From IMG/VR virus record IMGVR_UViG_3300011339_000451, positions 1 through 63,187 of that record: 63,187 nucleotides of DNA; one strand, 5' to 3'. The notes under the pieces are model-generated. The model searched no databases. It was not told where the DNA came from and saw only the letters and a program-made list of their open reading frames with translations. The stretch comes from a virus. Its lineage: Duplodnaviria > Caudoviricetes. The position numbers and the translations under genes are program-made. Each line of letters starts with the position of its first letter. Positions within the stretch are counted from its first letter, which is position 1. Below are positions 1-63,187 of this stretch, piece by piece.

Positions 1-160
1 TTCCATGTCATCACACAACTTTGCACACGCAGAACGCTCGGCAGAAGCGACAAGGGCGGCAAAGCGTTCAAGGTCTTCATCAATACCTGTTATCCGCAAC
101 AAATATCCTTGCTCAACATTGAACCCCGCCTCTCTTGCCATGCGAATAATTTCTTCTCTA
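1..160 (+). repeat. Terminal direct repeat, left copy
   Basis: 1-160 aligns ungapped to 63028-63187; first 81 nt identical, then 5 mismatches (positions 82, 111, 135, 151, 160). Confidence 0.95.
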
Positions 161-2354: not shown

Positions 2355-2604
2355 TTAAAGCTTCCTTTGCTAATTGTTTTTTCTTCATGGCGTAACGGCG
2401 GTTGTATTCGCGTTGCTTCTGTTTACGATGTTCGTCTGTAACTTTGGCTCGCGTCTTCTTGGTTGGCAGGGATTCAACCTTTCCTTCCAAGACTTTGATC
2501 TTCGCAGAAAGCATGATGTTTTCCGTGACCACTTTGTCAATTGTTTCCTTCAGCTTCCTCAGCTTGTCATTGATCGCTTGCTTTTCTTCGTTTGATATAA
2601 ACAT
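2341..2604 (-). CDS. Hypothetical coiled-coil, basic protein
   Basis: 87-aa ORF with heptad pattern and basic tail. Confidence 0.65.
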   Translation of the reverse strand: MFISNEEKQAINDKLRKLKETIDKVVTENIMLSAKIKVLEGKVESLPTKKTRAKVTDEHRKQKQREYNRRYAMKKKQLAKEALNVSP

Positions 2605-2607
2605 GAT

Positions 2608-3501
2608 TTACTCCATCGTTAAGTAGGTTTGGTATTGCTTGCAGAACTGGGACACTTGGCAGTAACTCTTGCACCGTGTCCTCTCCCCTTGTCTGACTTC
2701 CACTGAGAACTTCTCGCTCTTCTTGGCTGATGCCTGAGCCGCTTCCATCGCGGCAGTGGCTTCCTCGAATGTCTCGTGAACACTCTTGGCTCTGACGTTG
2801 CCGTCCTTCTTCACGGCGTAGCTGGTCTTCTTCTCCCACATTTCTTCTGATGTGCATTCAGGCATCTCGCCGTCAGTCTCCATCTCAAAGAGTGCTGTGC
2901 CGTGTTCGTAGATACGCTTGGTAATGAATGCCTCACGCTCCTCAAACGTCCACAGTGGGATGTCGATAGTGGCCACTGGCGACTGGGGATAGTTCTCCTT
3001 CGTAGCGGCATCGCGGGCAGACCAGTCGCGAATGATGGCAATGATCTGAAGCTTACCAACTGGCACCTTCTTGACCTTCTCCACCATCCACGCATAGATG
3101 TTGAGCTGACGATGCCAGTCGTCCTTCTCATTCATCACTGCCCATGCACCAGTAACTTTGTAGTCACTGATTGTGATCGTGCCGTTGGGTTCTACTTCTT
3201 GTAGATCAATAGCACCAGAGATATGCCAGCCTTCAAACTCAAGGTGGATGCGCTCTTCAACAATGTGGTGCTCGTCCTTGCCGTGCTCAAGAATGTTGTG
3301 CACAGCAGATCCGAACAGTGACCACACCATCTCGCTTGCGTCCTGCTCAATCTCGTCCCAGTACTTCTTCTTCAACTGCACGATGCGGGGTGAGTTGATG
3401 ATCTCTGTTGCTGAGATGTGCGCCTTACCTTTGGAATAGGTCGGCCTATGTATCACATTGAGGAAGGTCTGGGGTAAGTTGAACTTGTTGGTGAACTTCA
3501 T
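2608..3501 (-). CDS. PD-(D/E)XK (RecB/Cas4-like) exonuclease
   Basis: ISGAID...ISDYK...QLNIY motifs; C-terminal Cys cluster C...RCKSYCQVSQFC. Confidence 0.85.
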   Translation of the reverse strand: MKFTNKFNLPQTFLNVIHRPTYSKGKAHISATEIINSPRIVQLKKKYWDEIEQDASEMVWSLFGSAVHNILEHGKDEHHIVEERIHLEFEGWHISGAIDLQEVEPNGTITISDYKVTGAWAVMNEKDDWHRQLNIYAWMVEKVKKVPVGKLQIIAIIRDWSARDAATKENYPQSPVATIDIPLWTFEEREAFITKRIYEHGTALFEMETDGEMPECTSEEMWEKKTSYAVKKDGNVRAKSVHETFEEATAAMEAAQASAKKSEKFSVEVRQGERTRCKSYCQVSQFCKQYQTYLTME

Positions 3502-3977
3502 GGCTGATCCCTGTCTGCAATACGCTGAAGCTCACGCTTCTCAATGCTTAACATTCCTGCTAGCTTTGAGATCTTTGCTTGCGCGTCTGCGTTCTTCTTG
3601 CGACCTTCGTCAGTAAGTAGCTCAGTCTTGGTAAAGCTGACGCCCATGGCCATGCGCTTCATCTCGCGGCCAATAGCCTTGACACCAATGTCAACTGCAT
3701 GTTGTGTCTGAGACTCAGGTTCAATGATGACGTAGTTACCTGCGTGATCGCTGACCATTAACATACAGTGGGCCGTCAGTAGGATGTCTTTAATCTCTGT
3801 GATGCAACGCAGAACTTCAAGGTCGTAGCGGCGAACATCGCTGATGTCCACTGGCTTGGGTACTTCGCATAGGTCTGCCAAGTACGTGCGCTTTAGTACG
3901 CTACCGTACGTTAAGCCGTTGTCGAGCAAAGTCTTAACGGCTTGCTTCCAAGCAGGAAAGAGTTTGGGATCGCTCAT
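3498..3977 (-). CDS. Unknown 159-aa protein coupled to the RAMP-like gene
   Basis: 4-nt ATGA overlaps with both neighbours; no family recognised. Confidence 0.75.
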   Translation of the reverse strand: MSDPKLFPAWKQAVKTLLDNGLTYGSVLKRTYLADLCEVPKPVDISDVRRYDLEVLRCITEIKDILLTAHCMLMVSDHAGNYVIIEPESQTQHAVDIGVKAIGREMKRMAMGVSFTKTELLTDEGRKKNADAQAKISKLAGMLSIEKRELQRIADRDQP

Positions 3978-4543
3978 ACAAACTCCACGCTGAAACGACC
4001 GAAGCGGGGACGGTAGTCACCCAGACCAATCAATGCACCTGCATCGACCAGAGCCTTCTTTACTTCGTTCACGTTAACAACGTCTTCGTTCACAACAACT
4101 GTTGCTGATAGTGTCCAGTTACGGAAGATGGGACGATAGCGAATGATCTTGGCCATGCCGACCTTCACGCCACGTGCGTCAATGGCCTTTGGGTTTTCCC
4201 ACAACTTCTCTGGAGTCATGTTCTTGAAGCCGTCAATGGGTAGCTCGTCTTCCAATACCTGCACGCCCTGCTTGAACTTAACGCCAAGCTTCTGAAGCTT
4301 TGCCGCCGCGATCAGGCATGAGTCAAGGTTCTGCGCTGGAATAAAGAAACCCTTGTCTTCGTTCCAGTAGCAACCACCGATGAACTCGCTTCGTGCAATC
4401 GCAACGTGGTCGTCATCTGTCTTCTTGCGCTTGCTGGTCAGCTCTTTGTGAGCCTTGGCCAGAGGGTCTAACGGGTTTGCAAACCTGTCAGAGTGCATGA
4501 GTAAGGACGATGTGCCTGTAATTTTCACTGGGATAGTTTTCAT
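3974..4543 (-). CDS. RAMP/Cas7-like RNA-binding protein (candidate effector of the adjacent array)
   Basis: N-terminal strand VKITGTSSLLMH, FFIPAQNLDSCL helix, YRPIF..W, C-terminal Gly-rich loop GALIGLGDYRPRFGRF; AAGGAA RBS. Confidence 0.75.
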   Translation of the reverse strand: MKTIPVKITGTSSLLMHSDRFANPLDPLAKAHKELTSKRKKTDDDHVAIARSEFIGGCYWNEDKGFFIPAQNLDSCLIAAAKLQKLGVKFKQGVQVLEDELPIDGFKNMTPEKLWENPKAIDARGVKVGMAKIIRYRPIFRNWTLSATVVVNEDVVNVNEVKKALVDAGALIGLGDYRPRFGRFSVEFV

Positions 4544-4574
4544 TTTGTTTCCTTTAAGTTGTTTGATGCACTGT

Positions 4575-5145
4575 TTGCATCGGACATAAGACTGTTACCA
4601 ATCCTATGGCCGCTACATTAGCCCTAGCCGTGCCGCGTCATGCCATGCCGAGCCAAGCCCAGCCTAACCTCAGCAAGCGTTGCCACTAACACTCGAAGGA
4701 GCACTCATTGAATGCTCTATCGACTGTTGTCAGTCCATGCCAAGCCTCGCCTAGCCTCGCCTCAGCGCTCCATTCCAAACCCCAACTCGCCGCAACACTC
4801 GAAGGAACACTCGTAAGAATGTTCTATCGGCTGTTGCCAGCTCCATGCCCGTCCTCACCAGTCCCCGCCTCGCCTCGCCGTTCCGAGGCTTGCCGATACT
4901 CGAAGGAGAACTATTGCTAATTCCCTATCGGCTATCGCTAGCTCCATGCCCAACCCGACCTTGCCCAGCCTCCCATGCCCGTGCCCGCCCCACCGCACCG
5001 TGCCAGACCAGACCTAGCCTCACTAACACTCGAAGGATGACTGTTGCCAATCACCTATCGACTATTTCTAGTTCCCTGCCCGACCACACCCGACCGAGTC
5101 GCGCCGTACCTCGCCGTGCCTTGCCGATCCGTATCCAGCCATGCC
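4575..5145 (-). ncRNA. Array of five candidate guide RNAs, each a GGY-NN pentamer tract plus a 3' hairpin
   Basis: Tracts at 5071-5145, 4941-5019, 4840-4894, 4732-4791, 4620-4684; ACTCGAAGGA (+ strand) recurs at 4691, 4797, 4898, 5028; hairpins show compensatory changes. Confidence 0.85.
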
Positions 5146-5173
5146 GGTAAGTAAACCAGTTAGGTTGGTGTCG

Positions 5174-5202
5174 ATTGTACCTGCTATATTGTATGAATGC
5201 AA
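5174..5202 (-). promoter_or_regulatory. Sigma70-like promoter for the array and RAMP operon
   Basis: TTGCAT-N17-TACAAT on the minus strand, ~30 nt upstream of the first tract. Confidence 0.6.
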
Positions 5203-5240
5203 TATGTCTGATAAAATAAATGCAATATGTAGGGAAATCC

Positions 5241-5528
5241 ATGAGATACGCAAACCGCATTGACGCCAATCAAAACAAAATAGTTGAAGCTTTACGCAAG
5301 GCTGGCGCTTACGTCCGTATCATTTCTCAGGGTGACGGAATACCGGATTTGCTGGTGGCGTACAAGGGATACACGATACTGATGGAAGTTAAGGATGGCG
5401 ATAAGCCGCCGTCTGCCCGTAAGCTGACTGAGGCGGAGCAGAAGTTCTTTGACGAATGGACGGGTGGAATGTTGGTTGTTGTGAATTCTGTTGAGGAAAG
5501 TGTTGCAACGTTGCAGAAGTGCGATTAA
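5241..5528 (+). CDS. VRR-NUC / resolvase-like endonuclease
   Basis: RIDANQ...GIPDLLV...MEVKD...KLTEAEQKF. Confidence 0.8.
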   Translation: MRYANRIDANQNKIVEALRKAGAYVRIISQGDGIPDLLVAYKGYTILMEVKDGDKPPSARKLTEAEQKFFDEWTGGMLVVVNSVEESVATLQKCD

Positions 5529-5585
5529 TATCTTGCCAACCAGAGGGCTGGATTGTTTGTTGCTTTGTTCTCCTTGTGAAGGTTT

Positions 5586-5614
5586 GCGGCTCCGTAACTG
5601 GGGCCGCCTTTTTT
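5586..5614 (+). terminator. Intrinsic terminator
   Basis: GCGGCTCC-loop-GGGGCCGC followed by a T run. Confidence 0.7.
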
Positions 5615-5619
5615 AGGGA

Positions 5620-5702
5620 CAACACGCATGGGGATTGAGTCGCCTCACCTTGTACCAGTAAAGTGGTGCCGTCATAAGCAAGGTCAGTCCCCAGCCGTGT
5701 TG
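5620..5702 (+). ncRNA. Candidate nested stem-loop RNA
   Basis: CAACACG/CGTGTTG, TGGGGATTG/CAGTCCCCA, ACCTTG/CAAGGT nested. Confidence 0.4.
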
Positions 5703-5771
5703 GTGAAACTAAGTTCACCCCGCCTTGGGTACCGACGAATAGATTCGCCCTGTCGCTTGAAGAAATCGGTT

Positions 5772-6014
5772 ATGGCCATCAACATATTCATCTATACAAA
5801 ATCAAACTGTCCCAACTGTGTTGCGGCCAAACAACTTCTGAAGTCCAAGGGTCTGTCCTTTGTTGAGTGCGACATGGACGATCCGGCGGTACGTGAGAGC
5901 TTCATGTTCACCCACCCTGACGCTAAGCAGATGCCACAGATATTCATAGACGACCAGCGTGTCGGCGGATTAGCTGGCTTGAAGGTAGCGTTAAACCAAC
6001 TGAGTCTGCTGTGA
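5772..6014 (+). CDS. Glutaredoxin
   Basis: IYTKSNCPNC, MPQIFI, VGG; start moved to ATG 5772. Confidence 0.9.
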   Translation: MAINIFIYTKSNCPNCVAAKQLLKSKGLSFVECDMDDPAVRESFMFTHPDAKQMPQIFIDDQRVGGLAGLKVALNQLSLL

Positions 6015-6205
6015 CCTACGGCTGTCACAACCGTCCGGCTTTCAAGCCTAAGTTCTTTGTACAAAACGGCTGGTGGATAGATGGCCGCACTCGCACCGCG
6101 AAGGTGGAGCAGGCACCATTCCGCATGGCACCAGACTGTCAGTACACCAAGACCGACCTTGGCCGAGCAGACGAACGTTGTAAAGATTGCAAACACAAGC
6201 AATAG
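6011..6205 (+). CDS. Small Cys-containing hypothetical protein
   Basis: GCHNR...DCQY...RCKDC; overlaps the glutaredoxin stop. Confidence 0.6.
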   Translation: MTYGCHNRPAFKPKFFVQNGWWIDGRTRTAKVEQAPFRMAPDCQYTKTDLGRADERCKDCKHKQ

Positions 6206-6209
6206 GGTC

Positions 6210-6238
6210 TTGACAAGTCCAGTAGCGTTTGATATAAA
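6210..6238 (+). promoter_or_regulatory. Sigma70-like promoter
   Basis: TTGACA-N17-TATAAA. Confidence 0.7.
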
Positions 6239-6244
6239 CGGGGT

Positions 6245-6443
6245 GTTGTCGTAGTGGACAGCAAACCTTGAAGCCGTTATCTCATGCCTCTGTCCCTGTT
6301 ATTGGGGATCCACTACCGGGGGCAGTAGATAGCGGCTTTTTTGTTTTCGAGACTGAAGTGAGTGGTGGGTTAGCGCCACCATAGGGTTCACTCCTTTGTA
6401 TTGCGGACGTAAAACACTGCTTTATGTGAGTCACTTCAGTCTC
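6245..6443 (+). ncRNA. Candidate structured RNA(s) downstream of the promoter
   Basis: AAGCCGTTATCT/AGATAGCGGCTT plus T run; GTAGTGGA/TCCACTAC; 13-bp inverted repeat 6349-6361/6431-6443. Confidence 0.5.
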
Positions 6444-6804
6444 TCCTCCTACGGCAACTGGCACCAGAGTTCTATCGGGTTTTGGGCTGGCATGAGGGAG
6501 GCGTTGGAAGCCGCAAGGCGTAGACCGCAGTCCACCAGTCCTACAACGTTCTTATCTGGGGCGAGAGCGCATAAGAAGATGCAAGCGCGAATGGAGGAGA
6601 TGCCAGTGGTGTCCGTGGTTCAATTCTGCGGGTGGCGCTACTGGTTCGGGCGACCATGCTAGACGAGGTTACTCTCGGAAAGTGCTCGATGGTGGAGGAA
6701 GTAACTTCCAATCCACCCCGCCGGATACTCAGCCAGTGGCTCCGTCGTGGAAGATCTGCCGTAAGGGATTCGGTTCCCCTAGGCAGAGTCTTGCCCACCG
6801 AAGC

Positions 6805-55538: not shown

Positions 55539-58500
55539 ATGGCACTACAAACTGCTACCAACCCAGAGACAGGCGAAAAGGTTGTATTGGTTGGCGATCA
55601 GTGGGTGCCAATCACTCAGACGGCCACCAATGACAAGGGACAGAAAGCCTACTTAGCAAACAATCAGTGGATTACTGAGCCCGTTTCTGGTAAGAAAAAA
55701 GAGGCACCGATCCCAGAGCGTTCTTGGAGCGAAGTGCCTACTGACATTGGTGCCAGCTTGGTTTCCGGCTTGGGTGGACTGGCTCAGTTCCCCGGTCAGG
55801 TTTACGGCCTTGCTACTGGCGCAATCAAAGACAAAGACTTTGCCAAGACTGGCTTGTACGGTATTGGTCAAGAGATGCAGGACTACGCCAAGTCCATCAA
55901 GTCTGAGAACCTGAAGGCTAAGGAAGCCGCTGTTGAAGAGAAAGTTCAGGAAGCCGCCAAGGAAGGCGAGTTGCCTGCGTTCAAGACTAGCTTTGTTGAG
56001 ACTGTAAAAGATCCAACATTGATTAGCTCTTTCTTGCTTGAGCAGGTTCCGCAAGCTATTCCATCTTTAATTGCCGCACTGATTCCCGGTGCTGGCCCTG
56101 CCGTTGCCGCAGAAATTAAGTCTCTACAGATTGCCGCAAAAGCCGCTACCAATCCAATTGTCAGAAAGGCGACTGAAGAGGCTCTTGCAAACGCTGTTAA
56201 GAGGGGCACTCAAGAAGCCATTGAACGTGGCGCTACTGCCGCCGTCCGTACTGCCGCCGTTCAACAAGGCGCTGACATTGGTGCTGGTACGTATGACGCG
56301 ATGTACAAGTATTTGACTGAGATTAAAGGCTTGAGTCCAGAGCAGGCGGCTGACGAAACAATTAACTATGCCCGTGCCGCTGGCATTGGTGGTGGTGCGC
56401 TGTCTTTATTGGCGCAACGTTTGCCCGGAGCTAGGGCATTTGAGAGAGCGTTGGCTGGTGAGCGTACTGGTGCGGGCAGACTGGTTGGTGCCGCTGTCGG
56501 TGCTGTCAAAGAAACGCCGAGCGAGAACGTCGAAGAGGTCGGCGGTCGTCTGTTGCAAAACATTGCATTGAAACAAGTAAACCCAGAGCAGTCATTGACA
56601 GAAGGCTTGGGTCAGACTGCGGCTCAAGCTACTATCGGTGCCGCTGGAATGGGCGGTATTGGTGGTGTCTTTGGTGGTCGTGCAAAGACAGAGGCACCAG
56701 CAGAAGAAGCTCCAAAGACGCAAGCACCGAAGGTTGAACCAACTACACAAGTTGAGACATCGCAAGAGCCAAAGCCTTTGGCCATTGGTATGTCTGAGCC
56801 GTTCACTCCAGTTGTGTTGCCGGACGGATCTGTTGCGCTTACCAAGTCAGACTTAGATGCTTACGAGCAAGAACAGTTTGATAAGAAGTACGCCGCTCAA
56901 CCAAACTTAAATCAAGTGGTTCCTGCTGAGACTCCTCCGCAGTTGGGCTATTCACCACTGCCCGGCGTTCCAAAGATAACGCCAGACGGCACAGTATTGC
57001 TTACGCCTGAGCAGGAGTTTGAGGCTAAGTACGCCCCACAAAAGAAGCGCATTACAGCAGAAGAGTGGAATGCCATGTCTCCGGAAGAGAAGGATGCCGC
57101 TTCTGTTCAGGCCGCCCTTGAGGAGCAACAGCGCATTAGTGATGCTGAAGCTGAGGCGCAAGGCAAGGCCAAGAAAGAGGCTGGCTTTAAGGGCAGATGG
57201 ACGCCCGAGGAGCGTGCGGCTCTTGGTCTTGAGGAGCCTATCAAGCCACCGAAGCCTGCTGATAGAACCGTCAATCCAGAAAACATTGGTGTTGACAATC
57301 GGTTGATTACCGAGGGTGCTTCACCATTTACCGACCGCAAGCAAGCGGTAGAAGCGGCCAAGTTACAGCCTACTCTCAAACCCCTGAAGCTGGCTAAGAA
57401 TCAAGGCTACGTCCTGACGCCTAAGACGCAGGAAGAGTTGGACAGAGAAGCTGAGCTTGCCAAGCAACGTGCAGTTGTAAACGTTGGTGGTAAGGCTGGT
57501 GAACCGCTTGGTGCTGGTCAGTACATTGCCCGATATGGTGGCTTGAATCCAAGCCTTATGTCCGACATGAATACCGGTGGCAACTATAAGTACGGTATGG
57601 CTTATATGTTCTCCCCTACCGGCATGACGCTGGAGCGAGCGAAAGAGCGTTTGGTTAGTGCTGGTTACGTTTCAGAGGAGGCCACTGAGAGCGAAGTTAT
57701 TGACGCTATCAAGGGCAACACTTTGTCTACGGAGGGTGCTGAGTTTAGTGCCGAGAAAGAAACCAAACAGCGCGACAAGAAACAAGAGCTAGCAGAAGCC
57801 GCTGAGAGTCTGACGAAACCTGAAGTCTTGGAGATGGGCTACCCAATTACCCCTCAAGAGATCTCTCAGGATTACTTGGATAAGGTTGCTGACCTTGGCA
57901 TTGATACGTCCACGATTACCGAGCAGGCTTACGAGGACACAAAGGATCAGTCCGAAGACGCCTACCATGACCGTGTAAGCGAGCTGTCCAAGGAAGTTAT
58001 TGATAGATCAACTAGCGGATCGGAAACCAGTCAGGCTAAGCAAGACATACCGTTCACCGAGAAGCCAGCCGATAAAGGCAACAGAGAAACGCTGTCGGCT
58101 GTTAGTTCTGACGGCAAGTACTTCTACACCACTGAAGAGAACCTGCGTGTAGAGAAGGAGCTGACCGGCAAGACCATGAGGCAAGTGGCTAAGTGGGCTG
58201 TTGATAACGCACCCAACGCATTTGCCAAACACTTTGCCCAGAAGTCTCTTGACCGTATCGTTGATATGGAACGTGCCGGTGTGCGCTTTGGTTTTGGCAT
58301 TGCTACTGGCCGAAGCCGCCCTAGCGATTTGTATGATGGAATGGGTGTAACAAACTACATCTGGGGCGATAAGGCTAAGGGCGAAGATACGACCATCAGC
58401 ATTCAGTTGAATGGCGCTACTACGGTTGATAAGCAGACCAACTTCCCGCCCGGATGTTCGTACATTGTTGTGTTGCATGAGCTGTTGCACGTAGCGGCTC

Positions 58501-61500
58501 GCGGTCAGACGCGTTTCTTGCGTGATACAAATCCACTCGTTAAAGAGTTGAGAGACTTGTACAGTCAGGTTGCTCAGAAGTACATGGCTGATCGCGCCGC
58601 TGGTAAGTTGACCGGCATTGCGGCTGACTACAACAAGAACATGAACAACGCATTCCTGAATGCAGACGAGTTGATCTCTTGGGGTCTGACAGACAAGCGT
58701 ATGCAGGAGTATCTCTCTGAGATTAAGGTCGGAGAGAAGACTGCGTTCAGTAAGTTGATTGACCTGATCCGCCGCATCATTGGTATTGCCAAACCATTTG
58801 AGACTGCGCTTGACCGCTTGGTTCGTACTGCTGACCAGATCATGGACATCAGTGTTGAGACTATCGCTAACGGTGCTTTGGCTGAGGGCTACAGCTTCGG
58901 TCGTGGTAAGGCTCGTGCGGCTACTGGTGTACAGCAATCGTTGTTCAGTAAGGCTGTTAGAGAATCCTTCTCCGCCAAGCAAACCGTTACGCCTACATCT
59001 GCTGGCCAAGCGGCTATTGAGAAGTTGGAAAGAATGGGTCGTAAGGCAGAGAAGCCTAACGAGAGCCAGATCGAGAAGGCTCGCAAGGCTTGGGACAACG
59101 CTGTTGAGAATCCTAAGTCCACTCTTGAAGCCGCCAAAGCCGCTGTCGTTCGTTTCAATGATCGTGTTCAGACATGGGCGTTCTCAAGTGATGCCGCTAT
59201 CAACAACGACATTAGACGCGACGTCATGGATAGCAACCTATCCAACGAAGAGAAGATTGGTACGCTGTTGAATATCAGCACCAGCCAGACTGTTCACGGC
59301 GATGCCTTGGCTAGCTTGATGTTGATTGAAGGTAATCTCAAGTACAACGAAGAGTTGAACAAGTGGGAGGCTGTTAAGGACGACTACAACTTTGTAGCTT
59401 TGTCCAAGGCTCTGAGCGACTTTGCCGCCAAGTACGGTCTGAGCAAAGAGGCTGGCGATAAGATTGCACACACTGCGTTCGAGGCTAAGCGTCTTCAGTC
59501 TATGGTCAGGTTCAATCAAGAGCTTGAGTTAGAAGTAGCTGAAATGCGTGCACAAGCCGCCGCCCTCCGCAAGAAGGGTAGTGCCGTTGCCGCCAGTGCA
59601 CTCAGTGATAAAGCCGCACGCCGCTTGCAGGATAAGAAGTTTATCCACATGACGGACGAACAGATTGCTGACGGCGTTAGCTTCTTTGATGACATGCCAG
59701 AGCTTAACGAGATGGTTAAGATCTGGAGCAAGATGCGTGAGAACACTGCCAAGATTCTGGTGGACACCGGATTGTGGAGTGAGGCTGAAGCCGAGTTGAT
59801 GTTGGAGAACATTGACTACGTTCCATTCTTCCGTGAAGAGCAGATAGAAGAGGGCAAGGGGCCGAAGGAGTACATCCGTGGTCTGATGGTTCAGGCTAAA
59901 GAGAAGCGCCTCAAGGGTTCTGAGAAGCCAGTCAATGATGTGTTTGACAACATGGCTCGCTGGGTTCAGTATTCTGTTAACCGTGCCGTGCGTAACCGTT
60001 CCGCCTTGGCTCTGGTCGATACGGCAGAAGAGTTTGGTCAGGCTCGTAAGGTCGCTGATCGCAAGGATGGTGCAAACGTTGTTCGCGTATGGCGTAACGG
60101 CGAGGAAAGCTTCTATGACATGGCTGATCCCATGTTCGTTGAGGCGTTTGCTGGTATTGAATCCATCGCTATTCCCGCATGGAAGTGGGCGGCTACAGTT
60201 TCTAACTGGCTACGTCAGTCAGTGGTCTTGTACCCACTGTTCTCTGTTGCTCAGTTACCACAGGACTCGTTTGCCGCGATGTTCTCGTCTGGTTTGAATG
60301 CTCGCTACGCGCTGAGTATTCCAGCCCGTGCCGCCAAAGAGTTCCTGAAAACCTTGGTGAACAGAAGTACAACGAACGAACAGCTTAAGAAGTTTGGTGT
60401 CGTGGGTGTACGCGACTTCACATCTTCAATAGCTCGCTTGGATGCAGAAGTGCTCGCTGGATACAAAGCTCCGCCCGGCTTGGCTGGGAAAATCTTAAAC
60501 GGCTTGAACCACATTGCCATGTCTGCCGACAACGCTGTTCGTCAGGCTACGTATGAGGCCGCTATTGCCCAAGGCTTGAGCCGTGGTGAGGCTATCGAGA
60601 AGTCGTTTGAGATCTGGAACGTGCGCCGTAAGGGAACCAGTAAGTCCTTGGCCATTGCCGGTCAGGTGATTCCGTTCTTTAACGCATACCTTGCCGCCCA
60701 GAACGTTGCATTGAAAACTATCAGCGGCGTAGGTGTATCGCCCGGACAGCGCTCAGAAGCGATTAAAACTCTGATTGGTACCACGGCCTCAGTCATGACG
60801 CTTTCGTTGCTCTACGCCATGATGAATGGGGATGACGAGGATTATATTAAGAAGCCCGCCATCGTCCGTGACCGTTTGCTCATGATCCCCGGAACCGGCG
60901 GCCTGAGCATCCCGTTGCGTGCCGACTTGTTCTCAGTTCCAAAGATTGTTACCGAGCACATGTACCTCTTGTTGACCGACAAGGGTTATGAGGATGGCCG
61001 TAAGTTCCGTGACTCCATGTCTGCGGTTCTGAAGTCTGCCATCTTCAGCCCAACAGTTGTGCCGCAAGTGTTCAAGCCTTTGGTTGAAATCGGTATTAAC
61101 TACAACTTCTACTCTGGCCGTCCATTGATTGGACAGTTTGAGAAGATGAAAGAGACTGAGCGTCAGTTCACCGATACAACTTCTGAGTTGGCTAAGTCTT
61201 TGGGTAGTACTGGCATCATGTCTCCGATTGCTATCGACCACATGATTCGCGGTATGTTCGGCTCTGCTGGCGGCTTGATTGTCTACATGACCAACCCGTT
61301 GCTACACAGCGATCCAAACGTTGACCGTCCAACGATGTCTCTCAAGGATGCCATGGCCGCATTGCCGGGCACCAGCGGCTTTATCTCTCGTAGCTATGAG
61401 TCTGGATTCAAGAACGACTTCTACGTCCTGCGTGATGAAGTGGCCAAGGTTGCCAACACAATGTCTGACCTGAAGCAAAAGAGCCCAGAGAAGATTGAAG

Positions 61501-61733
61501 AGTATCTGTCTAGTGAAGAGATCATGGCACGCTACGGCATGTCTAAATCTGTTAACAAGATTACCAAACAGCTTAGCGATATTCGTAAGACCATCAGCCA
61601 GATCACCAACGCCCCGAGGGATGTGATGTCCGGTGCTGAGAAGGAAGAGCGGATCAAAGAGTTGCGTGCAATTGAGACTGACATGCTCAAGGCAATTAAT
61701 ACTAAAGAACTAAGGGCGATGGCAAAACTCTGA
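55539..61733 (+). CDS. Large polyvalent-type internal virion protein (2064 aa)
   Basis: HELLH zincin-like motif mid-protein; C-terminal IPFFNA...KPLVE...N.N...GRPL region resembling LPD38. Confidence 0.75.
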   Translation: MALQTATNPETGEKVVLVGDQWVPITQTATNDKGQKAYLANNQWITEPVSGKKKEAPIPERSWSEVPTDIGASLVSGLGGLAQFPGQVYGLATGAIKDKDFAKTGLYGIGQEMQDYAKSIKSENLKAKEAAVEEKVQEAAKEGELPAFKTSFVETVKDPTLISSFLLEQVPQAIPSLIAALIPGAGPAVAAEIKSLQIAAKAATNPIVRKATEEALANAVKRGTQEAIERGATAAVRTAAVQQGADIGAGTYDAMYKYLTEIKGLSPEQAADETINYARAAGIGGGALSLLAQRLPGARAFERALAGERTGAGRLVGAAVGAVKETPSENVEEVGGRLLQNIALKQVNPEQSLTEGLGQTAAQATIGAAGMGGIGGVFGGRAKTEAPAEEAPKTQAPKVEPTTQVETSQEPKPLAIGMSEPFTPVVLPDGSVALTKSDLDAYEQEQFDKKYAAQPNLNQVVPAETPPQLGYSPLPGVPKITPDGTVLLTPEQEFEAKYAPQKKRITAEEWNAMSPEEKDAASVQAALEEQQRISDAEAEAQGKAKKEAGFKGRWTPEERAALGLEEPIKPPKPADRTVNPENIGVDNRLITEGASPFTDRKQAVEAAKLQPTLKPLKLAKNQGYVLTPKTQEELDREAELAKQRAVVNVGGKAGEPLGAGQYIARYGGLNPSLMSDMNTGGNYKYGMAYMFSPTGMTLERAKERLVSAGYVSEEATESEVIDAIKGNTLSTEGAEFSAEKETKQRDKKQELAEAAESLTKPEVLEMGYPITPQEISQDYLDKVADLGIDTSTITEQAYEDTKDQSEDAYHDRVSELSKEVIDRSTSGSETSQAKQDIPFTEKPADKGNRETLSAVSSDGKYFYTTEENLRVEKELTGKTMRQVAKWAVDNAPNAFAKHFAQKSLDRIVDMERAGVRFGFGIATGRSRPSDLYDGMGVTNYIWGDKAKGEDTTISIQLNGATTVDKQTNFPPGCSYIVVLHELLHVAARGQTRFLRDTNPLVKELRDLYSQVAQKYMADRAAGKLTGIAADYNKNMNNAFLNADELISWGLTDKRMQEYLSEIKVGEKTAFSKLIDLIRRIIGIAKPFETALDRLVRTADQIMDISVETIANGALAEGYSFGRGKARAATGVQQSLFSKAVRESFSAKQTVTPTSAGQAAIEKLERMGRKAEKPNESQIEKARKAWDNAVENPKSTLEAAKAAVVRFNDRVQTWAFSSDAAINNDIRRDVMDSNLSNEEKIGTLLNISTSQTVHGDALASLMLIEGNLKYNEELNKWEAVKDDYNFVALSKALSDFAAKYGLSKEAGDKIAHTAFEAKRLQSMVRFNQELELEVAEMRAQAAALRKKGSAVAASALSDKAARRLQDKKFIHMTDEQIADGVSFFDDMPELNEMVKIWSKMRENTAKILVDTGLWSEAEAELMLENIDYVPFFREEQIEEGKGPKEYIRGLMVQAKEKRLKGSEKPVNDVFDNMARWVQYSVNRAVRNRSALALVDTAEEFGQARKVADRKDGANVVRVWRNGEESFYDMADPMFVEAFAGIESIAIPAWKWAATVSNWLRQSVVLYPLFSVAQLPQDSFAAMFSSGLNARYALSIPARAAKEFLKTLVNRSTTNEQLKKFGVVGVRDFTSSIARLDAEVLAGYKAPPGLAGKILNGLNHIAMSADNAVRQATYEAAIAQGLSRGEAIEKSFEIWNVRRKGTSKSLAIAGQVIPFFNAYLAAQNVALKTISGVGVSPGQRSEAIKTLIGTTASVMTLSLLYAMMNGDDEDYIKKPAIVRDRLLMIPGTGGLSIPLRADLFSVPKIVTEHMYLLLTDKGYEDGRKFRDSMSAVLKSAIFSPTVVPQVFKPLVEIGINYNFYSGRPLIGQFEKMKETERQFTDTTSELAKSLGSTGIMSPIAIDHMIRGMFGSAGGLIVYMTNPLLHSDPNVDRPTMSLKDAMAALPGTSGFISRSYESGFKNDFYVLRDEVAKVANTMSDLKQKSPEKIEEYLSSEEIMARYGMSKSVNKITKQLSDIRKTISQITNAPRDVMSGAEKEERIKELRAIETDMLKAINTKELRAMAKL

Positions 61734-62947: not shown

Positions 62948-63187
62948 GCTTGTCCCCTTGCTCGGATGGCGTAGGCGCAGTCAATCGGAGTTGGCCATTT
63001 ACAGCATTCCACGCCTTCGGCTTTTTCTTCCATGTCATCACACAACTTTGCACACGCAGAACGCTCGGCAGAAGCGACAAGGGCGGCAAAGCGTTCAAGG
63101 TCTTCATCTATACCTGTTATCCGCAACAAATATCCTTTCTCAACATTGAACCCCGCCTCTCGTGCCATGCGAATAATGTCTTCTCTG
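62944..63187 (-). CDS. Small phage protein; its start lies in the left repeat copy
   Basis: IIRMAREAG...ERSACAK...AIRARGQA. Confidence 0.7.
   Translation of the reverse strand, partial: REDIIRMAREAGFNVEKGYLLRITGIDEDLERFAALVASAERSACAKLCDDMEEKAEGVECCKWPTPIDCAYAIRARGQA
63028..63187 (+). repeat. Terminal direct repeat, right copy
   Basis: 155/160 identical to 1-160. Confidence 0.95.

What the first reader, a model, noticed from the sequence alone, without database searches (positions are those of the whole stretch)
4620..5145. Five tracts with a 5-nt period: near-constant GGY, variable NN
Seen, minus strand 5'->3'. T1 (5145-5071): GGCAT GGCTG GATAC GGATC GGCAA GGCAC GGCGA GGTAC GGCGC GACTC GGTCG GGTGT GGTCG GGCAG GGAAC. 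T2 (5019-4941): GGCTA GGTCT GGTCT GGCAC GGTGC GGTGG GGCGG GCACG GGCAT GGGA GGCTG GGCAA GGTCG GGTTG GGCAT GGAGC. T3 (4894-4840): GGCAA GCCTC GGAAC GGCGA GGCGA GGCGG GGACT GGTGA GGACG GGCAT GGAGC. T4 (4791-4732): GGCGA GTTGG GGTTT GGAAT GGAGC GCTGA GGCGA GGCTA GGCGA GGCTT GGCAT GGACT. T5 (4684-4620): GGCAA CGCTT GCTGA GGTTA GGCTG GGCTT GGCTC GGCAT GGCAT GACGC GGCAC GGCTA GGGCT. Variation is concentrated in positions 4-5 and every tract has a different NN string. That is unlike a slippage microsatellite and suggests stored information. T2-T4 all end GGCAT GGA, probably a constant handle.
Basis: seen in the sequence. Interest (0 to 1): 0.9.

Follow-up and report, generated by a model that had tools for sequence, protein, structure and literature searches.

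The report
Phage VIPR guide-RNA array
The five 5-base-period tracts are genes for the guide RNAs of a VIPR system, a CRISPR-like phage weapon first described in 2026, so the pattern is real and does store information, but its kind is already in print.

Summary
Five tracts with in-phase GG every 5 nt lie at 4620-5145, all on the minus strand, and nowhere else in the 63-kb window. The best 60-nt stretch has 11 of 12 in phase, against 5-7 in 100 shuffles.

The tracts form an array of five vrRNA guide genes of a VIPR system (Viral Interference Programmable Repeat).
- The gene directly downstream (3974-4543, minus) matches the solved SUSP1 Vipr protein over its full length (PDB 36pp, E 1.8e-46).
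- The next gene resembles the vap1-position gene of Felix O1-type phages.
- Each tract is followed by a constant two-hairpin tail with strong covariation.
- All 38 related viral loci carry 2-10 such tracts upstream of vipr on the gene's strand.
- Over 88 distinct tracts, positions 1-2 are G (96%, 90%), position 3 is Y in 75%, and positions 4-5 are near-random at 1.95 and 1.99 bits.

The kind was published in three 2026 bioRxiv preprints. This scan has already noted it 1038 times in at least 599 genomes. This locus is a new member, from a freshwater phage clade.

The natural targets of the five guides remain unknown. Nothing was found in the sequence I held, and a collection-wide search was left out.

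The parts
5146..5240 (-). Conserved control region upstream of the array. It holds a candidate promoter (-35-like hexamer 5202-5197, 17-nt spacer, -10-like TACAAT 5179-5174) and a 15-nt direct repeat (5193-5207, 5216-5230). It is shared with the divergent nuclease gene.
   Evidence: Read. The region is nearly identical in L002 and L003, while those loci are about 78-79% identical overall. The repeat is D8. The consensus scan did NOT call this promoter, because the -35 matches only 3 of 6. The promoter is inferred, not shown.
5023..5145 (-). vrRNA 1: guide tract 5145-5071 (15 GGY/NN units) plus structured tail 5070-5023.
   Evidence: The tail matches model R1 at 80.9 bits.
4895..5019 (-). vrRNA 2: guide tract 5019-4941 (16 units, one of 4 nt, so a 1-nt register slip) plus tail 4940-4895.
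   Evidence: Tail 79.6 bits. No length difference listed in the runs laid; X10, X1 and X2 cover the place.
4792..4894 (-). vrRNA 3: guide tract 4894-4840 (11 units, the 2nd degenerate) plus tail 4839-4792.
   Evidence: Tail 82.2 bits. Part of its NN string recurs in L003-L005 and L007-L010.
4686..4791 (-). vrRNA 4: guide tract 4791-4732 (12 units, two degenerate) plus tail 4731-4686.
   Evidence: Tail 74.7 bits. One contig of run X16 skips 106 nt (4687 to 4794), which is the length of this one unit (table 5).
It has a divergent vipr-proximal tail with small hairpins at 4622-4612 and 4603-4590, and a further hairpin at 4581-4565 just before the vipr ribosome-binding site.
   Evidence: The tail is only a weak match to R1 (13.7 bits, E 0.32), but it is conserved in place and sequence in L002 and L003. 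The 4581-4565 stem shows a compensatory G-C to A-U change in L003.
3974..4543 (-). vipr gene: 189-aa RAMP-type protein that should polymerise on the GGY/NN repeats.
   Evidence: phmmer against PDB: 36pp_D 'SUSP1 Vipr protein', E 1.8e-46, residues 1-188 of 189. phrog_4652, E 8.8e-69. No Pfam or PADLOC family.
3498..3977 (-). vap1-like accessory gene (159 aa); its start overlaps the vipr stop by 4 nt.
   Evidence: BLASTP to the gene that follows vipr in Felixounavirus VpaE1: 19% identity, E 5e-07. To Medea1_0008: 26% identity, E 3e-13. phrog_5926. No PDB sequence match.

Best explanation
The 4544-5219 gap holds an array of five vrRNA genes of a phage VIPR system, probably type II-like. They are read on the minus strand, probably from one promoter near 5175-5200, and together with the vipr and vap1-like genes that follow. 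Each vrRNA is a tract of 11-16 five-base units followed by a roughly 46-50-nt constant tail of two hairpins.

By homology with the SUSP1 system, one Vipr protomer binds each unit. It flips out and holds G1, G2 and Y3 and presents N4 and N5. [quoted passage not shown] Shown here: the periodic tracts, the constrained GG against the free NN, the covarying tails on this strand, the Vipr homology with the RNA- and DNA-contact residues kept, the vap-like neighbour, and the conserved layout in 38 relatives. Inferred from the preprints and not shown here: expression and processing, filament formation, the skip rule in this clade, silencing, and what the five guides are aimed at.
For: (1) Vipr homology. 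Full-length match to the solved SUSP1 Vipr, E 1.8e-46. In that alignment seven residues the cryo-EM preprint names as contacts are identical: H17, K33, R39, K82, R138 (R137 here), D177 (D176) and R179 (R178). W178 is Y177 here. The residue roles come from 10.64898/2026.04.26.720927, Results part 1.
(2) Tract statistics. Over 88 distinct tracts and 1065 units: G 95.8%, G 90.0%, C/T 75.0%. Entropy is 1.95 and 1.99 bits at positions 4 and 5.
(3) Tail structure. 97.0% of 1356 cells are paired, against 75.4% in shuffles and 33-50% with partners slid. 12 of 15 pairs show compensatory changes, in 313 cells. A U-G pair occurs in 80 of 94 rows, which fits RNA of this strand only.
(4) Relatives. All 38 viral loci with a Vipr relative (72-97% identity) have 2-10 tracts upstream on the gene's strand.
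(5) vap1-like neighbour.
(6) No self-target. The best 1-nt-skip NN match of the five guides in the window is 0.57-0.73, no better than with 0 or 2 skipped bases. The preprint reports the same for its systems.
(7) Published definition. vrRNAs have 9-16 YNNGG repeats and a constant structured 3' tail, beside a vipr and a vap gene, mostly in viruses (10.64898/2026.04.26.720920, Results).
(8) Weak hint of transcription. A 673-nt contig from an RNA-seq library (run X10) lies on 4505-5098.
Against: - No natural target was found for any guide.
- Expression, processing and binding are not shown. The RNA-library contig could come from DNA in the library.
- The consensus promoter scan did not call the proposed promoter, and it found no terminator in 3400-5400.
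- Position 3 is a purine in 25% of units. The two SUSP1 residues said to exclude purines (E71, M72) are Q71 and N72 here.
- I found no pseudoknot in the tail, unlike the SUSP1 clade.
- vr2 carries a 4-nt unit whose effect on a 5-nt-per-protomer filament is unknown.
- The type assignment rests on similarity (about 41% identity to Felix O1-type Viprs), not on the authors' tree.
Confidence: 0.93

Rival explanations
1. The array is a genuine VIPR array but works mainly as a decoy or competitor. On this reading its RNAs load a rival phage's Vipr, or redirect the phage's own Vipr to harmless sites, rather than silencing a rival element directly.
For: The October 2026 preprint reports satellites and phages that carry vrRNAs used in this way (10.64898/2026.10.15.759431, abstract and passages). 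No target was found here for any guide.
Against: Those decoy guides are 'solo', without vipr. Here vipr and a vap-like gene follow the array directly and are conserved in 38 of 38 relatives. Failing to find a target in about 0.4-0.7 Mb of held sequence says little.
Confidence: 0.05
2. The tracts are a translated low-complexity gene, or several short ones.
For: Mechanical ORFs cross parts of the region (101 aa at 4845-5150 on the plus strand, 70 aa at 4708-4920 on the plus strand, and two on the minus strand).
Against: The constraint has period 5, not 3. None of the 4 ORFs matches Pfam at E up to 1. In the window and 28 distinct related arrays no frame stays open through the array. For example, the longest stop-free run is 110 codons in the 1105-nt array of L037.
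Confidence: 0.01
3. The tracts are a DNA-level or generic RNA-level element with no guide role. Options are a replication origin primed through an R-loop on the G-rich strand, two-tier G-quadruplex runs, C-rich Rho-loading sites on the other strand, or a sponge for a ring-shaped RNA-binding protein of the TRAP kind.
For: These were my first ideas. The strand is G-rich on the sense side, the tracts are 55-79 nt long, and the locus sits among replication and recombination genes.
Against: None of these explains free variation at exactly positions 4-5, the covarying RNA tail with U-G pairs after every tract, or the constant company of a Vipr homologue. The VIPR reading explains all three.
Confidence: 0.02
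4. It is an unusual CRISPR array, with the tails as repeats and the tracts as spacers.
For: Constant structured units alternate with variable units, and the neighbouring protein is RAMP-like.
Against: The 'spacers' are themselves period-5 repeats. The 'repeats' are only 66-70% alike within the array (D1). The two adjacent proteins match no PADLOC model. The neighbours are an exonuclease, an Erf-like protein and a small nuclease, not cas1 or cas2. I did not scan the whole window for cas genes.
Confidence: 0.01

Closest known systems
Type II VIPR system of Escherichia phage SUSP1 (Vipr + vap1 + vrRNAs; bioRxiv 10.64898/2026.04.26.720920, .720927, 10.64898/2026.10.15.759431; PDB 36pp)
   Same: Full-length Vipr homologue with the GG-binding and DNA-clamping residues kept. 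GGY/NN five-base units, 11-16 per guide. Constant structured 3' tail that starts with a conserved GG(C/T)AT-GG unit. A vap1-like gene right after vipr. Located on a phage. No self-targets.
   Different: - Only about 41% protein identity to the Felix O1-type Viprs.
- All five guides lie upstream of vipr in one array. SUSP1 has one upstream and three downstream, and its relative VpaE1 shows three and two tracts.
- The tail is two plain hairpins with tetraloop-type loops. I found no pseudoknot, and model R1 does not match the VpaE1 tails (best 7.1 bits).
- Position 3 tolerates A (19%), and the pyrimidine-pocket residues differ.
- The phage is a freshwater virus of about 63 kb with an unknown host.
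- The targets are unknown.
VIPR of the Pseudomonas fulva prophage clade and Vipr genes of Pseudomonas phages Medea1 and LESphi2
   Same: These are the closest cultured-phage Viprs: Medea1 60.6% and LESphi2 47.1% identity. Medea1 also has a vap-like gene after vipr.
   Different: In Medea1 the single tract lies downstream of the vap-like gene (4070-4143 of L040), and its tail matches R1 only weakly (16.8 bits). I did not have the P. fulva sequence, so that comparison rests on the preprint's text only.
Class 1 CRISPR effector backbone (Cas7 filament on crRNA)
   Same: A RAMP protein with a G-rich loop and a thumb polymerises along a guide RNA and flips bases out at a fixed period. A variable guide is capped by a constant structured handle (as the preprints state).
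   Different: The period is 5 with three bases flipped, not 6 with one. The target is read with a gap (2 of every 3 bases). The array has no identical repeats. No adaptation or nuclease cas genes lie beside it.
TRAP (trp RNA-binding attenuation protein) on its (G/U)AG repeats (recalled, not tested)
   Same: It works alike in one respect: an oligomer in which each subunit reads a short conserved triplet, spaced by a few free bases, along a single RNA.
   Different: TRAP is a closed ring that regulates one operon, and its spacer bases carry no information. There is no homology, so this is an analogy only.

Membership tests
VIPR system (Vipr + vrRNA), type II-like | A Vipr protein: a minimal RAMP with RRM core, G-rich loop and thumb | tested here: met
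   phmmer against PDB sequences: 36pp_D 'SUSP1 Vipr protein', E 1.8e-46, 1-188 of 189 residues, with the C-terminal G-loop block aligned. The fold itself was not predicted here.
VIPR system (Vipr + vrRNA), type II-like | Residues that hold G1 and G2 and clamp the DNA strands in SUSP1 Vipr (H17, R138, D177, W178, R179, K33, R39, K82) | tested here: met
   From the alignment: 7 of 8 are identical and W178 is Y here. The Y3-pocket residues E71, M72 and C173 are Q, N and I here, so they are not kept. Residue roles were taken from 10.64898/2026.04.26.720927, Results part 1.
VIPR system (Vipr + vrRNA), type II-like | vrRNA tracts of tandem five-base units (at least 4, typically 9-16) with conserved GGY and hypervariable NN | tested here: met
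   Five tracts of 11-16 units. Clade-wide composition and entropy are given. Position-specific divergence between orthologous arrays is given.
VIPR system (Vipr + vrRNA), type II-like | A constant, structured 3' tail after each tract | tested here: met
   Model R1 finds 4 strong tails and 1 weak tail in the window, and 125 matches over 40 sources. Covariation is strong. An alternative helix was weaker: its two outer pairs are only 62.6% paired.
VIPR system (Vipr + vrRNA), type II-like | A pseudoknot in the tail (stated for the SUSP1 clade only) | tested here: inconclusive
   The loops of both hairpins are mostly 3-4 nt, and I saw no supported third helix. No dedicated pseudoknot search was run.
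VIPR system (Vipr + vrRNA), type II-like | An adjacent vap accessory gene (type II: a predicted DNA-binding vap1) | tested here: met
   The 159-aa product of 3498-3977 aligns with the gene after vipr in VpaE1 (E 5e-07, 19% identity) and in Medea1 (E 3e-13). The similarity is weak. That the VpaE1 gene equals vap1 is inferred from its position, not checked against SUSP1 itself.
VIPR system (Vipr + vrRNA), type II-like | vrRNAs expressed as roughly 100-nt RNAs that co-purify with Vipr | not testable with these tools
   The only hint is a contig from an RNA-seq library that lies on 4505-5098. Contigs cannot show strand, ends or level.
VIPR system (Vipr + vrRNA), type II-like | Guides match natural targets by the 1-nt skip rule (at least 80% of NN letters) | tested here: inconclusive
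   In the sequence I held, hits of 80% or more were at background. Against 318,469 nt of loci: 5 hits with 1 skip, against 2 and 2 with 0 and 2 skips. Against six near-complete genomes of the clade: 4 against 1 and 3. No public collection was searched.
VIPR system (Vipr + vrRNA), type II-like | No self-targeting of the source genome | tested here: met
   The best NN match of the five full guides in the window is 0.57-0.73, the same as the controls with other skip lengths.
VIPR system (Vipr + vrRNA), type II-like | Placement in the authors' Vipr tree (types I-VII) | not tested
   The tree and type tables are in figures and supplements that I could not see. 'Type II-like' rests on similarity to SUSP1-type and Pseudomonas Viprs and on the vap1-like gene.
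CRISPR-Cas | Near-identical direct repeats separating contiguous spacers, with cas adaptation genes nearby | tested here: not met
   The tail copies are 66-70% alike. The variable parts are internally periodic. The adjacent genes are not cas1 or cas2. The whole window was not scanned for cas genes.

The most novel reading that the evidence does not exclude
This freshwater clade may be a distinct VIPR subtype. Three features would mark it:
- a hairpin-only tail;
- a relaxed third position (GGH), matched by a changed pyrimidine pocket (Q71 and N72 in place of E71 and M72);
- arrays that gain and lose whole guides by recombination between tails.
Its guides may also be aimed at a target class not yet described for VIPR. 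Part of the vr3 NN string is shared by several relatives. The NN composition resembles codon positions 1-2 in the sense direction (r = 0.51 over 16 dinucleotides). Both hint at one conserved protein-coding target in a freshwater host or its mobile elements.
Probability: 0.25. Interest if true: 0.45.

Novelty: new member of a known kind. Interest (0 to 1): 0.28.

Why it matters
The locus shows that a reader with no tools can pick out a real programmable guide array from sequence alone.

It also adds to the record a well-sampled environmental clade of VIPR systems. I examined 38 related viral loci, 6 near-complete genomes and 4 MAG contigs, and 15 listed public runs, most of them labelled as freshwater or other aquatic metagenomes, hold half or more of the stretch's sampled words. 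This clade differs from the studied SUSP1 system in three ways:
- its array layout;
- its tail structure;
- its tolerance at position 3.

That natural variation could help define what the Vipr filament really requires.

The biology that would make the locus important is still open: what a freshwater phage silences with five guides.

Tried and rejected
- **Early hypotheses.** Before the PDB hit I considered a TRAP-like ring-protein site, R-loop or origin DNA, G-quadruplex runs and Rho-loading sites. I dropped them once the Vipr match and the tail covariation explained everything.
- **Rfam.** Nothing meaningful in 3500-6500. The best two hits had E 0.95 and 4.9, far below their gathering scores.
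- **Phage collection, DNA.** Megablast of 4400-5400 found nothing. Blastn of 3000-6200 found only 242 nt of the Medea1 vipr gene.
- **Tandem Repeats Finder.** It sees only short period-5 and period-10 fragments.
- **Pfam and PADLOC.** No family for Vipr or the vap-like protein.
- **Promoters and terminators.** The consensus scan did not call my proposed promoter and found no terminator.
- **Coding reading.** Rejected.
- **Alternative tail helix from RNAalifold.** Its two outer pairs are 62.6% paired. The two inner ones are compatible but compete with the better-supported hairpin P1.
- **vr2 as a fusion of two guides at an internal handle-like motif.** Not supported: 0 of 11 tracts with 17 or more units, and 2 of 77 shorter ones, hold such a motif.
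- **Targets.** There were none above background in the window, in 318,469 nt of held loci, or in six near-complete genomes of the clade. So these phages do not obviously aim at each other's genomes or VIPR loci.
- **Host.** Unresolved. Vipr relatives sit in MAGs labelled Rhodoferax (80%), Betaproteobacteria (74%), Burkholderiaceae (60%) and Cyanobium (76%). The nearest large terminases are from Pelagibacter phages, cyanophages and an uncultured 'Gammaproteobacteria' phage, at 48-57% identity.
- **Reads.** In RNA-library run X10 no contig lay on 3622-4435 (the vipr body), while one lay on the array. These are contigs only, so this says nothing firm about relative expression. Runs with small word shares (X16-X20) are no evidence of habitat.
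- **Structure and complex prediction, protein atlas, large protein searches.** Not run, because the PDB sequence match made them unnecessary.
- **Supplements.** They may already list this clade or its targets.

Full report
**Observation.** The minus strand of 4620-5145 reads as the finding says.
- In-phase GG dinucleotides per 60 nt reach 11 of 12. They are 7 or more only at five places, which are the five tracts. The plus strand never exceeds 6.
- In 100 block shuffles of the window the maximum was 5-7.
- T2 is 79 nt long, so one unit has four bases. No length difference was listed there in the four runs laid, three of which cover the place.
- The pattern is real, strand-specific and far beyond chance.

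**Setting.** The window is a complete or nearly complete IMG/VR virus record of 63,187 nt. Its ends overlap by 159 nt.
- It is a tailed phage with terminase, portal, major head protein, helicase, primase, an Erf-like protein and a Cas4-like exonuclease.
- The tracts fill a 676-nt gap. On one side is a minus-strand operon: 3974-4543, then 3498-3977, then the exonuclease. On the other is a divergent small nuclease gene.
- The tracts lie on the sense strand of that operon.

**Relatives.** A scan of viral contigs with the 189-aa product of 3974-4543 gave 38 loci at 72-97% identity.
- All 38 carry 2-10 period-5 GG tracts directly upstream of the gene, on its strand.
- L037 has ten.
- L026 has two complete copies of the system facing away from each other.

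**Identity.** The 189-aa protein has no Pfam or PADLOC family. It does match the solved 'SUSP1 Vipr protein' (PDB 36pp) over its whole length, E 1.8e-46. That name led to three 2026 preprints.
- 10.64898/2026.04.26.720920 (Results and four Methods sections read) defines VIPR systems. They comprise a minimal RAMP protein (Vipr), an accessory vap gene, and vrRNAs made of 9-16 YNNGG repeats in which GGY is conserved and NN hypervariable, followed by a constant structured tail. The NN letters pair with DNA while one target base per unit is skipped. The complex silences transcription of rival phages, prophages and satellites.
- 10.64898/2026.04.26.720927 (Results part 1 read) shows one protomer per repeat. 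It names the residues that hold G1, G2 and Y3 and those that clamp the DNA.
- In the alignment H17, K33, R39, K82, R138, D177 and R179 are identical here, and W178 is Y. The pyrimidine-pocket residues E71 and M72 are Q and N.
- The next gene (159 aa) is weakly similar to the gene that follows vipr in Felixounavirus VpaE1 (E 5e-07) and in Pseudomonas phage Medea1 (E 3e-13). So it is a vap1-like gene.

**Anatomy of the array.** Each tract is followed by a constant unit of about 46-50 nt.
- A covariance model built from the four clear tails finds those four at 75-82 bits. It finds the vipr-proximal fifth only weakly (13.7 bits), and it gives 125 matches over the window and 39 loci.
- On that alignment the two hairpins, of 4 bp and 3+8 bp, are 97.0% paired. 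Shuffles give 75.4% and slid partners 33-50%. 12 of 15 pairs show compensatory changes. The alignment was fitted to the model, which favours the structure, but the slid controls share that bias.
- One pair is U-G in 80 of 94 rows. That fits RNA made from the minus strand only.
- Upstream of vr1 is a block conserved in L002 and L003. It holds a -10-like TACAAT and a weak -35. The consensus scan did not call it, and it found no terminator anywhere in the array.
- I therefore infer one precursor that runs on into vipr and is cut into units. That is not shown.
- No other tract or tail exists in the window, so there are no solo guides elsewhere.

- Period-5 entropy. Over 88 distinct tracts (1065 five-base units and 6 odd ones), position 1 is G in 95.8% and position 2 in 90.0%. 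Position 3 is C 37.9%, T 37.1%, A 19.1% and G 5.9%. Positions 4 and 5 carry 1.95 and 1.99 bits.
- Orthologous arrays. The closest relatives are only about 78-79% identical in DNA, although Vipr is 96-97% identical. In the aligned arrays, identity at repeat positions 1 to 5 is 0.93, 0.89, 0.72, 0.60 and 0.48 against L002. Against L003 it is 0.93, 0.85, 0.61, 0.62 and 0.60. Promoter and tails are 0.82-0.85. A global alignment flatters the variable positions, so the real contrast is larger.
- Guide sharing. Guides are almost never shared. Only part of vr3 recurs, at 0.81-0.86 NN identity over a partial overlap, in L003-L005 and L007-L010.
- Guide number ranges from 2 to 10.
- One contig of run X16 skips 106 nt, 4687 to 4794, with 13 letters shared at the joint. 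That is the length of one whole vrRNA unit (table 5). It fits loss or gain of guides by recombination between tails, but it is one contig, from a relative about 90-95% alike.
- Runs X1 and X2 differ from the window at only four places in 2.2 kb, all in the end and tail of vr3. Two of them change one tail pair from G-C to A-U.

**Targets.** Using guides read from the file by coordinates, I scanned with 0, 1, 2 and 3 skipped bases.
- In the window itself the five guides reach 0.57-0.73 NN match with one skip. That is no better than the controls, so there is no self-target.
- Hits of 80% or more against 318,469 nt of held loci numbered 2, 5 and 2 for 0, 1 and 2 skips.
- Against six near-complete genomes of the clade they numbered 1, 4 and 3, using 68 guides.
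- So the clade does not visibly target itself.
- The NN composition correlates with codon positions 1-2 of these phages' genes in the sense direction (r = 0.51). For other phases, or for positions 1-2 read antisense, r lies between -0.42 and -0.06. That is a weak hint of coding targets.

**Expression and habitat.**
- Fifteen of 24 listed runs hold half or more of the sampled words. Most are labelled river, freshwater, lake, groundwater or other aquatic metagenomes; two carry a coded organism label.
- A 673-nt contig of an RNA-seq library lies on 4505-5098, with 52 letters between its two pieces that do not lie on the window. This shows presence in an RNA library, not transcription.

**Comparison and verdict.** The locus meets every defining feature of VIPR that I could test. 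The ones that need wet work or unseen tables remain open.
- It differs from SUSP1 in four ways. All guides lie upstream in one array. The tail is two hairpins with no pseudoknot found. Position 3 is relaxed, with a changed pocket. The host world is different.
- Relatives also place the array elsewhere. In L042 it lies between vipr and vap. In L044 and Medea1 it lies after vap.
- The preprint itself reports variable array layouts and alternative unit consensus forms.
- The kind is in print, and this scan has noted it 1038 times in at least 599 genomes.
- I therefore file it as a new member of a known kind, with modest interest. The one open question that matters is what its guides silence.

Noticed in passing
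window 1-159 and 63028-63186: The two ends of the record overlap by 159 nt at 97.5% identity (4 mismatches). The genome is probably complete and circularly permuted, or assembled across a terminal repeat of two strains, although the record is classed 'linear'.
   Followed up: partly
L026 280-1835 (minus) and 2487-4028 (plus): One related contig carries two complete VIPR systems (array, vipr, vap) facing away from each other, on either side of the small nuclease gene. The second array's tails score the same as those of L028, L030 and L032. This is either a real duplication or an assembly chimera.
   Followed up: partly
L037 1852-2970: This is the largest array in the clade: ten guides in about 1.1 kb upstream of vipr.
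   Followed up: no
L042 4561-4825; L044 5076-5328; L040 (Medea1) 4070-4189: More distant relatives place the array elsewhere. In the Rhodoferax MAG contig it lies between vipr and vap. In the Burkholderiaceae MAG contig and Pseudomonas phage Medea1 it lies after vap. In the Medea1 GenBank table shown this stretch carries no listed feature.
   Followed up: partly
window 5193-5207 and 5216-5230: A 15-nt direct repeat (14 of 15 identical), spaced 23 nt, sits in the divergent control region between the array and the nuclease gene. It is conserved in L002 and L003 and may be an operator or a pair of promoter elements.
   Followed up: no
window 5220/5241-5528 (+): The divergent gene encodes a small VRR-NUC or Holliday-resolvase-like nuclease (phrog_93 and phrog_5702, weak). 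It sits beside the VIPR locus in L002, L026 and L037 but not in L040, L042 or L044. So it is probably clade synteny rather than part of the system.
   Followed up: partly
window 4830, 4841, 4845, 4882: These are the only four differences from runs X1 and X2 in 2.2 kb. All lie in the 3' end and tail of vr3, and 4830 plus 4841 turn one tail pair from G-C into A-U.
   Followed up: partly
window 4565-4581 (-): A 6-bp hairpin sits just before the vipr ribosome-binding site, with no U-run after it. It is kept in L002 and shows a compensatory change in L003. It may be a processing or translation-control element.
   Followed up: no
L045 (Felixounavirus VpaE1) 2043-2405 and 3586-3806: This Felix O1-type phage shows three GGT-rich tracts upstream and two downstream of its vipr and vap genes. 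The GenBank record lists no feature in either gap.
   Followed up: no
window 55539-61733 (+): A single 2064-codon ORF lies at the end of the structural module. It was not examined.
   Followed up: no
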